Source: Escherichia phage VB-EcoM-WM. From it: a stretch of 64,000 bases of DNA. The notes under the pieces were generated by a model, which saw only the letters and a program-made list of their open reading frames with translations, was not told the DNA's origin and did not search any database. Of the stretch, positions 54,620-54,906 are shown piece after piece. Both the position numbers and the translations under genes were made by a program. The DNA is taken from sequence record PQ014731.1. One strand, 5' to 3'. How positions within the stretch are numbered: position 1 is the stretch's first letter; each line of letters starts with the position of its first letter.

Positions 54620-54906
54620 GGTTGTTTTCGTGTATCATGATGAATATCCAATTTAAAGATGAATTTGATGGCTTTATCTCCGGATGCTTTGAAACAGGGT
54701 TCGGAGAATGCTGAGTTCCCTTAGAGGGCTTGATAGTGCACCACACTTAAAATGGTAGGGGCAGCCAGCACATGACGATGTGACCCCAGCCAACCTGTAA
54801 TAAGGTCGAGCCAAAGCGCGGTAATGGGTCTCTGGTAACCCACTTGTTGGGTCTTGCTGGTCCAGGACGCTGGGCAAGTCGCAGGGAATACCACCCTGCG
54901 GCGAAC
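54620..54906. other. GC-rich ORF-less island, candidate structured RNA
   Basis: All three minus-strand frames open but no RBS; composition differs from flanking AT-rich DNA. Confidence 0.25.

What the first reader, a model, noticed from the sequence alone, without database searches (positions are those of the whole stretch)
54620..54906. GC-rich ORF-less island upstream of the tRNA cluster (second)
Seen: about 290 nt of GC-rich sequence between gene 54377-54619 and a promoter at 54907-54935; all three minus-strand frames are open (the three overlapping track ORFs) but none has an RBS. I saw no obvious P7-like intron core. Inference: a second structured RNA candidate, or foreign DNA remnant.
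Basis: seen in the sequence. Interest (0 to 1): 0.4.

Follow-up and report, generated by a model that had tools for sequence, protein, structure and literature searches.

The report
Phage copy of SroH-like structured RNA
The ORF-less, GC-rich stretch is a gene for a folded non-coding RNA whose 45-base core is shared by over a thousand phage genomes (including T4, where it is unannotated) and by the E. coli small RNA SroH, whose function is unknown.

Summary
Window 54620-54906 lies between a real gene and a strong promoter. It is GC-rich from about 54700 on and carries three overlapping minus-strand ORFs with no protein support.

It is a plus-strand non-coding RNA gene of an rV5-like (Vequintavirus) phage. 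Diverged relatives keep a three-way-junction core (54789-54829), a preceding stem (54758-54787) and a probable pseudoknot (54764-54768 with 54832-54836), with many compensatory base changes. A sigma-70-like promoter sits just upstream.

The core has no Rfam match in the window. A model built from it finds the same core in about 1,075 phage records: T4-like, rV5-like, N4-like and marine/freshwater phages. It often lies inside or beside tRNA clusters, always on the local coding strand, and is almost never annotated. In T4 it lies between denV and vs.8.

The same model hits E. coli sRNA SroH (RF00372) at 49 bits. Rfam models SroH with no structure beyond its terminator.

Function is unknown for both host and phage copies. 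My best guess is a stable trans-acting RNA that binds a conserved cellular factor. A cis-acting RNA element, a ribozyme or an aptamer are not excluded. I class it as a new variant of a known kind, of moderate to high interest.

The parts
54610..54638 (+). Sigma-70-like promoter TTTACA-17-TATCAT (10/12) overlapping the stop codon of the upstream gene. The predicted start is near 54645. This is the likely promoter of the RNA in this clade.
   Evidence: L005 has TATTAT at the same place. The sister clade L006-L009 instead has TTGACA-17-TATACT (11/12, TG) directly upstream of the conserved RNA.
54655..54675 (+). 21-mer AAAGATGAATTTGATGGCTTT, 100% identical in the diverged clade L006-L009. Its role is unknown. 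In that clade it lies just upstream of the -35 hexamer, in the position of an UP element.
54677..54707 (+). Leader hairpin UCUCCGGAU...GUUCGGAGA, specific to the window clade.
   Evidence: It is in both the MFE and centroid folds. In L005 a C-to-U change keeps the pair as G-U.
54718..54757 (+). 5' block that is nearly invariant across both rV5-like clades. It contains hairpin CCC-UUAGA-GGG, then CUUGAU, then hairpin AGUG-CACCA-CACU, then UAAAAUGGUA. It is absent from T4-like copies.
   Evidence: The helices are inferred only, because there is no sequence variation to test them.
54758..54787 (+). Stem A: GGGG (54758-54761) pairs with CCCC (54784-54787). It encloses internal loop AGCCAG and an inner hairpin CACAU-GACG-AUGUG (54769-54782).
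   Evidence: The inner hairpin is fully compensated in L006-L009 (CUACG-GACG-CGUAG) and the outer stem changes GGGG/CCCC to GGAA/UUCC. A stem of unrelated sequence sits at the same place in every lineage and in SroH.
54789..54829 (+). Three-way-junction core. Closing helix is 54789-54792 with 54825 and 54827-54829 (G54826 bulged). Hairpin 1 is ACCU-GUAAUA-AGGU (54793-54806). Junction CGA follows. Hairpin 2 is GC-loop-GC (54810-54819). Junction GGUAA follows.
   Evidence: CM R1 scores 67.5 bits, E about 4e-19, at 54785-54833. Covariation: (97.3% of cells paired, 5 pairs with double changes, score 0.346 against 0.096 in shuffles, 0/500).
54832..54836 (+). 3' strand of the probable pseudoknot: CUGGU pairs with GCCAG (54764-54768) in the internal loop of stem A.
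   Evidence: Other lineages have different complementary pairs at the same two places. L006 GUGAGGG/CCCUUAC; L027 GGGAG/CUCCC; L012 and L050 CGGA/UCCG; L072 CUCCGG/CCGGAG; L028 ACCAA/UUGGU; SroH CAGA/UCUG. Own-versus-swapped tail permutation gives p about 0.003-0.01. It is not seen in the classical T-even copies.
54839..54851 (+). Hairpin CCCA-CUUGU-UGGG followed by UCUU. It resembles SroH's terminator hairpin (CCCACC-UUAA-GGUGGG-UUUU) but has no proper U-run.
   Evidence: Read. Not called as a terminator.
54853..54878 (+). Hairpin CUUGC[UGGU CCAG-GACG-CUGG]GCAAG, carrying a second GACG tetraloop.
   Evidence: In L005 the inner stem changes CCAG/CUGG to UCAG/CUGA, a compensatory change.
54880..54900 (+). 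Hairpin CGCAGGG-AAUACCA-CCCUGCG. It occurs only in the window clade and ends 6 nt before the next promoter.
54907..54935 (+). Promoter of the downstream gene (rV5 P74). It marks the 3' limit of the island. There is no intrinsic terminator between the RNA and this promoter.

Best explanation
The island is a gene for a structured non-coding RNA on the + strand of an rV5-like phage.

Shown:
- The sequence is non-coding.
- It carries a 45-nt three-way-junction core, directly preceded by a stem-loop, whose helices covary across very different phages.
- The 3' tail probably pairs back into that stem-loop as a pseudoknot.
- The same core occurs in about 1,075 phage records and in the E. coli small RNA SroH.
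- It always lies on the local coding strand, and often inside or next to tRNA gene clusters.

Inferred:
- It is transcribed early from its own sigma-70-type promoter (54610-54638).
- Either it is cut out of read-through transcripts that continue into the tRNA operon, or it ends near the weak hairpin at 54839-54851.
- It accumulates as a stable small RNA and acts in trans.
- About 15 nucleotides in the junction strands and the loop of hairpin 1 are invariant or nearly so, and no complementary target is evident. I therefore think it works by presenting a folded surface to a conserved cellular factor (a protein, or possibly a small ligand), copying or competing with the host's SroH, rather than by antisense pairing.

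The factor and the benefit to the phage are unknown.
For: Non-coding status: and frameshifting indels.

Core structure:
- RNAalifold recovers the junction.
- Pair counts: 95.8-97.3% of cells paired. Pair 6-44 is CG14/GC6/AU2. Pair 27-34 is CG13/UA4/GC3/AU1. Pair 7-43 is CG19/UA2/GC1.
- Covariation score is 0.346, against 0.096 in shuffles (0/500) and <=0.055 in slid controls.

Strand: G-U alternates with A-U at pair 5-45, and SroH is annotated on the matching strand.

Stem A and inner hairpin are fully compensated between rV5-like clades. Pseudoknot permutation tests give p=0.0025-0.01.

Promoters directly upstream: window, L007 (11/12) and SroH (7 nt before its annotated 5' end).

Discrete-gene precedents:
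- SroH is an annotated 161-nt ncRNA scoring 201 bits on RF00372.
- L028 and EcoPhCCP1 have a terminator hairpin downstream of the motif.

Family breadth: 700 records by blastn with the island, and 1,075 with the 49-nt core.

CM scores: 42-71 bits in T4-like, rV5-like, N4-like, jumbo and uncultured phages, and 49.3 bits (E=4e-14) on K-12 sroH.

tRNA adjacency on the same strand.

No shared neighbouring protein gene.
Against: - No expression data were available, so the transcript, its ends and its stability are all inferred.
- There is no intrinsic terminator between the RNA and the next promoter.
- Single-sequence folding is unremarkable: z=-1.48 for the island and +0.42 for the core. The MFE does not recover the short junction helices, so the fold rests on comparative evidence.
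- Hairpin 1's stem never varies, so it is untested. My search patterns also fixed it.
- In classical T-even phages the element has no obvious promoter or pseudoknot, and it abuts the stop codon of the upstream gene and the ribosome-binding site of vs.8. That fits a cis role at least as well.
- The Rfam sroH model does not detect the window.
- SroH's own function is unknown, so homology gives no mechanism.
Confidence: 0.6

Rival explanations
1. It is a cis-acting RNA element within polycistronic transcripts. It could be a processing site, a stability barrier, or a translational or termination control signal for neighbouring genes or tRNAs, rather than a free trans-acting RNA.
For: - It is always co-oriented with flanking genes and lies in intergenic positions.
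- In T4 it fills the denV-vs.8 gap, from the stop codon to about 60 nt before the vs.8 start.
- Salmonella phage STP4-a has a degenerate second copy in the next intergenic gap.
- In the window there is no terminator before the next promoter, so read-through into the tRNA operon is likely.
- Several copies sit 25-60 nt after a tRNA.
Against: - There is no consistent downstream gene family (and the annotation calls).
- The host homologue SroH is a stand-alone gene with its own promoter and terminator, convergent with its neighbour.
- Dedicated promoters lie immediately upstream in two rV5-like clades.
- Identical junction nucleotides across unrelated phages and hosts are more than a simple nuclease site would need.
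Confidence: 0.22
2. It is a catalytic or ligand/ribosome-factor-binding RNA of a new class. It could be a self-cleaving ribozyme that helps process tRNA-operon transcripts, an aptamer acting as a 'sponge', or a mimic of the 16S rRNA 530 loop that decoys something targeting the decoding centre.
For: - The compact pseudoknotted junction has about 15 invariant or nearly invariant unpaired nucleotides, which is typical of ribozymes and aptamers.
- It is frequent in tRNA clusters, where phage ribozymes are known to occur (own knowledge).
- The 3' half, C-R-A-G-N-[loop]-N'-C-G-G-U-A-A-U, has the same order and pairing context as 16S 518-534 (CCAGC-AGCC-GCGGUAAU). The pattern occurs once in the rrn operon against 0.04 expected.
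- This half is kept in SroH.
Against: - No Rfam ribozyme or riboswitch model matches.
- By eye the layout does not fit hammerhead, twister, HDV-like or pistol ribozymes.
- The shared k-mers with 16S are not significant on their own: the 9-mer recurs in 19% of shuffles and the 10-mer in 5%.
- The resemblance was noticed post hoc.
- The second 16S-like stretch (hairpin-1 loop against 16S 1497-1506) is not kept in SroH.
- No common downstream gene would define a riboswitch.
Confidence: 0.1
3. It is a DNA-level feature: a remnant of foreign DNA, or a conserved cassette that promotes recombination between phages, with no RNA function.
For: - GC content is higher than in the rest of the genome.
- Nearly identical 40-nt cores occur in unrelated phages and flank hyper-variable internal-protein genes in T4-like phages.
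Against: - Helices are maintained by compensatory and G-U-tolerant changes on one strand only.
- The flanks inside the element differ completely between lineages, so recent transfer does not explain the conservation.
- There is no host DNA match by blastn.
Confidence: 0.05
4. One of the overlapping minus-strand ORFs (72-93 aa) encodes a small protein or is a pseudogene remnant.
For: The ORFs exist, and several GenBank records annotate a hypothetical protein here.
Against: - There is no Pfam hit and no significant PHROG hit.
- No ribosome-binding site is visible.
- 1-nt indels occur between 98%-identical phages, and the region is shortened and rearranged in L006-L009.
- Open frames are expected by chance on the complement of GC-rich RNA.
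Confidence: 0.03

Closest known systems
SroH small RNA of E. coli (Rfam RF00372; K-12 b4691, 4190327-4190487)
   Same: - It has the same three-way-junction core: the phage-derived CM scores 49.3 bits, E=4e-14.
- It has the same preceding stem with a 5' internal loop (GCAGCAGA against GCAGCCAG in the window).
- A complementary tail could form the same pseudoknot (CAGA/UCUG).
- It has its own sigma-70-like promoter.
- Its function is also unknown.
   Different: - SroH is chromosomal, lying 3' of thiH and convergent with yjaZ, and has a Rho-independent terminator.
- Its hairpin 1 is extended (ACCUGCGA-UUA-UCGCAAGGU) in place of the GUAAUA loop.
- The flanking sequences are unrelated.
- The Rfam sroH model, whose only annotated structure is the terminator, does not hit the window at E<=10. 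It reaches only 11.6 bits on one phage copy.
Phage T4 stable RNAs rnaC and rnaD (species 1 and 2), encoded in the T4 tRNA cluster
   Same: They are small stable phage RNAs of unknown function, encoded next to and co-transcribed with phage tRNAs (own knowledge). A GAGUAGC-type motif in rnaC recurs just 3' of the core in two uncultured phages.
   Different: No R1 match other than the denV-vs.8 copy was reported (E<=10) in the 13-kb T4 stretch that contains rnaC and rnaD. T4's copy of the present motif lies 6 kb away, between denV and vs.8.
Pseudo-ToxI of Pectobacterium phage PhiTE (RNA mimic of a type III antitoxin)
   Same: It is a precedent for a phage carrying a look-alike of a host-encoded structured RNA and using it in trans against a host system (PMC5449768).
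   Different: ToxI-type RNAs are tandem 36-nt repeats. The island has no tandem repeat and no sequence similarity to them. No toxin partner is known for SroH.
GOLLD/ROOL and HDV-like 'theta' ribozymes (phage RNAs associated with tRNA genes)
   Same: They are structured RNAs that sit beside tRNA genes in phage genomes (own knowledge; PMC12286853 is listed).
   Different: Their size and fold are different, and no Rfam match was found.
16S rRNA helix 18 (530 loop)
   Same: It has the same order of elements: C-N-A, then a 2-bp G-C/N-N' mini-helix, then GGUAA, then a U that enters the closing helix.
   Different: The phage RNA has hairpin 1 inserted. The loop of its mini-helix varies and does not show the 505-507/524-526 pseudoknot. 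The statistical support is weak and post hoc.

Membership tests
sroH (Rfam RF00372) | Score at or above the Rfam gathering threshold (80 bits) with the sroH covariance model | tested here: not met
   There is no sroH hit on the window even at E<=10. The best phage hit is 11.6 bits. K-12 sroH itself scores 201 bits.
sroH (Rfam RF00372) | Shared conserved core sequence and structure (three-way junction, preceding stem, complementary tail) | tested here: met
   The CM built only from phage copies hits K-12 and O157 sroH at 49.3 bits, E=4e-14. SroH fits all 10 core pairs in alignment A4. Stem A and the CAGA/UCUG pairing were read.
sroH (Rfam RF00372) | Discrete sRNA gene with its own promoter and Rho-independent terminator | tested here: inconclusive
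   A promoter-like site is present. No terminator was called, only a weak hairpin at 54839-54851, and a downstream promoter follows directly.
sroH (Rfam RF00372) | Chromosomal context thiH - sroH - yjaZ | tested here: not met
   The window copy lies between phage genes and a tRNA cluster. The host context is shown.
sroH (Rfam RF00372) | Accumulates as a stable RNA of about 160 nt in vivo | not testable with these tools
   No transcript data were available.
Group I intron (RF00028) | P3-P9 catalytic core detectable by the Rfam model; insertion within a gene | tested here: not met
   There is no hit in the island, whereas the true intron at 58393-58617 scores 92.7 bits. The island is intergenic.
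tRNA / tmRNA / tRNA-like | Cloverleaf detectable by ARAGORN or the Rfam tRNA model | tested here: not met
Type III antitoxin RNA (ToxI-like) | Tandem direct repeats of about 34-45 nt | tested here: not met
   TRF finds nothing in 54580-54960 at minimum score 30.
Known riboswitch and self-cleaving ribozyme classes (Rfam 15) | Match to any curated covariance model | tested here: not met
   Only noise-level hits to a snoRNA and a miRNA model, at E 7.7 and 9.5. The same was true for two other family members.
Protein-coding gene (minus strand ORFs) | Homology, RBS, frame conservation | tested here: not met
   read. The large protein databases were not searched.

The most novel reading that the evidence does not exclude
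The conserved pseudoknotted junction is a new functional RNA class shared by host and phages. It could be a mimic of the ribosomal 530 loop/decoding site, or an aptamer or ribozyme. Phages would deploy it as a decoy or sponge against a host factor or defence that acts on the translation apparatus, which would also reveal the unknown function of SroH.
Probability: 0.12. Interest if true: 0.9.

Novelty: new variant of a known kind. Interest (0 to 1): 0.62.

Why it matters
If this holds, one of the oldest 'orphan' E. coli small RNAs (SroH, described in 2003) has a conserved, pseudoknotted structural core. Rfam does not model that core.

The core has been independently kept by more than a thousand virulent phage genomes, about 2% of those in the collection searched (50,697 records). 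These include T4, where it is hidden under an over-extended vs.8 annotation.

That breadth covers T4-like, rV5-like, N4-like, jumbo, marine and freshwater phages. It argues for a target common to many bacteria. It also gives several tractable systems (a T4 deletion of the denV-vs.8 gap, a host lacking sroH) in which to find that target.

It adds a candidate to the short list of phage RNAs that copy a host RNA. For annotation, it explains a recurrent ORF-less gap and several spurious 'hypothetical proteins'.

Tried and rejected
**Database and homology checks**
- Rfam at gathering and permissive thresholds on the window, on a 271-nt slice and on two other family members gave nothing, apart from the weak sroH lead.
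- tRNA/tmRNA scan: nothing. Tandem repeats: nothing.
- Pfam and PHROGs on the three minus-strand ORFs: no significant match.
- blastn of the island against 5,426 E. coli genomes: no match. This missed sroH because the shared words are shorter than 11 nt.

**Structure and motif checks**
- Single-sequence thermodynamic folding is not informative.
- Relation to the first GC island (53100-53450): only shared 9-mers, and that island is absent from L006-L009. I treated it as unrelated.
- A second copy in the window at 47108-47155 (24.6 bits) lies antisense inside a 427-aa ORF and lacks the hairpin-1 loop. I treated it as chance.
- T4 rnaC/rnaD as homologues: rejected.
- Hammerhead, twister, HDV-like, pistol, SRP-Alu, RNase P, tRNA-like and L11-GAC resemblances were considered by eye and dropped.
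- 16S mimicry was kept only as a lead, because the shuffle tests are weak and hairpin 1 is not kept in SroH.

**Collection and literature searches**
- Genome-collection pattern hits L030-L036 score 16-26 bits and lack the wider core context (preceding CA, GGUC-RAG). Most are probably chance; L033 (26.5 bits) is unresolved.
- Relaxing hairpin 1's 5' strand in a viral scan found no new members.
- Ten literature searches found no description of the phage motif and no function for SroH.
- Vogel et al. 2003 is not in the held library.

Full report
**What the window is.** The region is 97-99.6% identical to rV5-like (Vequintavirus) E. coli phages. In phage rV5 the corresponding stretch lies between gp071 and ORF74. 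It is flanked by the annotated promoters P75 and P74, carries no feature of its own, and lies about 0.5 kb upstream of the tRNA cluster.

**Checking the observation.**
- The upstream ORF 54377-54619 is a real gene (PHROG 5676, E=4e-42).
- The downstream promoter TTGACA-17-TAAAAT is at 54907-54935.
- GC rises to 0.55 over 54700-54899, against 0.35-0.43 around it. The first 80 nt or so of the interval are not GC-rich.
- The three overlapping minus-strand ORFs exist (79, 72 and 93 aa).
- They have no Pfam match and no significant PHROG match, and no visible ribosome-binding site.
- 1-nt indels between this phage and 98%-identical rV5 disrupt them.
- Rfam finds no family here at any threshold. ARAGORN finds no tRNA and TRF finds no repeats.

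**Comparative evidence within rV5-like phages.** Using the downstream protein as a handle, I fetched relatives whose protein is only 69-73% identical (L006-L009). The syntenic gap aligns (A1) with a striking pattern.
- A block of about 120 nt is conserved, while everything around it has diverged.
- In those relatives a near-consensus promoter (TTGACA-17-TATACT, 11/12) sits immediately upstream.
- The window clade instead has TTTACA-17-TATCAT at 54610-54638.
- Within the block, the hairpin CACAU-GACG-AUGUG becomes CUACG-GACG-CGUAG.
- Its enclosing stem GGGG/CCCC becomes GGAA/UUCC. Both helices are fully compensated.

**A core shared far beyond rV5-like phages.**
- blastn of the island hit 700 phage records. 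118 were rV5-like over the full length. About 580 were T4-like, over only about 44 nt (window 54786-54829) at 91-95% identity.
- In T2 and RB3 this stretch lies between ip4 and vs.8.
- In T4 it lies between denV and the real start of vs.8, under the over-extended vs.8 annotation.
- Pattern scans of viral, metagenome and genome collections and a blastn with the 49-nt core (1,075 records, about 2% of the phage collection) extended the family.
- New members include jumbo-size and 47-kb uncultured phages, the N4-like Klebsiella phage KpCHEMY26, Shigella phage SF1-1, Gelderlandvirus STP4-a, Vibrio phages, the 44-kb phage EcoPhCCP1, and marine (TARA) and freshwater contigs.
- The feature is almost never annotated.

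**Structure.**
- RNAalifold on 15 lineages recovers a three-way junction.
- On curated core alignments the named structure has 95.8-97.3% of cells paired.
- Five pairs show changes on both sides: 6-44 CG/GC/AU, 27-34 CG/UA/GC/AU, 7-43 CG/UA/GC, 8-41 AU/GC, plus 5-45.
- The covariation score is 0.346, against 0.096 in shuffles (0/500) and <=0.055 when partners are slid.
- G-U alternates with A-U at pair 5-45, which places the RNA on the + strand.
- Every lineage has a stem-loop of unrelated sequence abutting the junction on the 5' side.
- In most lineages the 4-7 nt that follow the junction by 2-3 nt are complementary to a loop of that stem. Examples: window GCCAG/CUGGU; L006 GUGAGGG/CCCUUAC; L027 GGGAG/CUCCC; L012 and L050 CGGA/UCCG; L072 CUCCGG/CCGGAG; L028 ACCAA/UUGGU.
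- Own tails pair better than swapped tails (p=0.0025 to 0.01). A pseudoknot is therefore probable, though it is not visible in classical T-even copies.

**Caveats on the structure.**
- Hairpin 1's stem (ACCU/AGGU) never varies, and my patterns fixed it.
- Single-sequence folding energies are unremarkable.
- The junction helices are only 2-4 bp, so the fold probably depends on tertiary contacts or a partner.

**Context.**
- The motif is always on the local coding strand.
- It is inside or beside tRNA clusters in many independent lineages. It lies immediately 3' of a tRNA in L011, L055 and L065. It lies inside a 10-tRNA cluster in SF1-1. It lies 200-570 nt 5' of the cluster in L012, L018 and the window. 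It lies about 1 kb away in L044, KpCHEMY26 and a Vibrio phage.
- No protein gene is consistently adjacent (and the annotation calls).
- In L028 a terminator-like hairpin follows the motif, and in EcoPhCCP1 I read one from the sequence.

**Link to a known RNA.**
- A permissive Rfam scan of one uncultured copy gave a weak local match to sroH (11.6 bits).
- I fetched K-12 sroH and found that my phage-derived model scores 49.3 bits (E=4e-14) on it.
- SroH has the same junction and the same kind of preceding stem, with internal loop GCAGCAGA against GCAGCCAG in the window.
- SroH also has a tail (UCUG) complementary to that loop, a promoter-like site 7 nt before its annotated 5' end, and a terminator.
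- Its hairpin 1 is longer, so the GUAAUA loop is not universal.
- Rfam's sroH model carries no structure except the terminator, which explains why it cannot see the phage copies.
- The sroH core 34-mer occurs once in 3,741 of 5,426 complete E. coli genomes and on five plasmids of about 90 kb. The one I examined (89.7 kb) encodes a baseplate protein and carries sroH next to a yjaZ homologue.
- In the literature I could search, SroH is listed as uncharacterised or under-characterised. There is one in vitro mRNA binding result, no biofilm or motility phenotype, and mentions of polyadenylation and stress-dependent expression. Nothing links it to phages.

**Mechanism.**
- Shown: a conserved, covarying, strand-specific RNA fold with promoter-like sites upstream, in a family that includes a bona fide host sRNA.
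- Inferred: the window RNA is made early from 54610-54638. It either ends weakly near 54851 or is processed from read-through transcripts that continue into ORF74 and the tRNAs. It then acts in trans.
- About 15 nucleotides of the junction strands and the hairpin-1 loop are invariant or nearly so from marine podovirus-like contigs to T4 and E. coli, and no antisense target is evident. I therefore favour recognition of the folded junction by a conserved cellular factor, with the phage copy imitating or out-competing SroH (confidence about 0.6 for the package).
- A cis role in mRNA and tRNA-precursor processing or stability is the main rival (about 0.2), and it fits the T-even arrangement well.
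- A new ribozyme or aptamer is possible (about 0.1).

**One lead.** The 3' half of the core reads C-R-A-G-N-[loop]-N'-C-G-G-U-A-A-U. It has the same order and pairing context as 16S rRNA 518-534, the 530 loop.
- The pattern occurs once in the rrn operon against 0.04 expected.
- The shared k-mers alone are not significant, and the resemblance was noticed after the fact.

**Verdict.** The RNA is a phage-borne relative of SroH. By Rfam's criterion it is not a member of the sroH family, but it shares that family's previously unmodelled structural core. I therefore class it as a new variant of a known kind. It is of moderate to high interest because it ties an orphan host sRNA to a very widespread, unannotated element of model phages.

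Noticed in passing
window 58393-58617 (+): A group I intron (RF00028, 92.7 bits). rV5 annotates the terminase large-subunit gene in this neighbourhood as a CDS joined from three pieces, so the intron probably interrupts it.
   Followed up: no
window 55868-55966 (+): An odd 97-99-nt tRNA-like gene. ARAGORN calls a 4-base anticodon and the Rfam tRNA model gives only 37.5 bits. It may have an insertion or a long extra arm.
   Followed up: no
window 56169-56510 (+): A 113-aa ORF with CxxC and HH motifs, looking like an HNH endonuclease. It lies right after tRNA-Met, where rV5 has tRNA-Pro, so it is probably a homing endonuclease insertion in the tRNA cluster.
   Followed up: no
window 52933-53018 (+): Four tandem 21-22-nt repeats, each carrying the palindrome TGTCCG-N5-CGGACA. 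They look like an operator array or a row of hairpins, just upstream of the first GC-rich island.
   Followed up: partly
window about 53100-53450: The first GC-rich ORF-less island (GC up to 0.55). It is conserved in close rV5-like phages but absent from L006-L009. It has no significant similarity to the second island beyond the 9-mers TTGATAGTG and ATAGTGCAC, and no credible Rfam hit.
   Followed up: partly
L066 (T4 NC_000866) record 64,859-64,898, minus strand: T4's annotated vs.8 CDS (64253-64912) starts at an ATG inside the RNA's stem-loop and runs over the conserved motif. RB3 annotates a shorter vs.8 that starts downstream of the motif, and in T2 vs.8 is annotated only as two fragments. 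The T4 start is probably mis-called.
   Followed up: partly
L070 (Salmonella phage STP4-a) 2911-2943: A degenerate second copy of the core (23 bits) lies in the next intergenic gap, after the IPIII gene.
   Followed up: no
L067 (HK620) 1501-1732; L012 and L018 flanks: Long hairpins (CACAACAGGTAAGAGC...GCTCTTTCCGGTGTGGTGAATGCG) that flank the motif in 47-kb Klebsiella-type phages also occur in the HK620 late leader, between pR'/qut and tQ. HK620 does not have the core itself.
   Followed up: partly
L076 (E. coli plasmid pMUB-MIN14-1, 89.7 kb) 2501-2533: A plasmid that encodes a baseplate protein carries an sroH-like sequence next to a yjaZ homologue ('stationary phase growth adaptation protein'). 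The yjaZ-sroH pair may therefore be mobile.
   Followed up: no
L066 8909-9047 (T4 rnaC); L011 and L065 just 3' of the motif: T4 species 1 RNA contains CCGAGUAGCG and UUGAGUAGCG. Two tRNA-adjacent uncultured phages have AGCCGAGUUAGUAGC and AGCCGAGGUGAGUAGC right after the motif. L011 then has about 300 nt more of ORF-poor sequence ending in a T-arm-like GGUUCGAA.
   Followed up: no
window 47108-47155 (+): A weak match to the core model (24.6 bits). It lies antisense inside a 427-aa ORF and is probably chance.
   Followed up: partly
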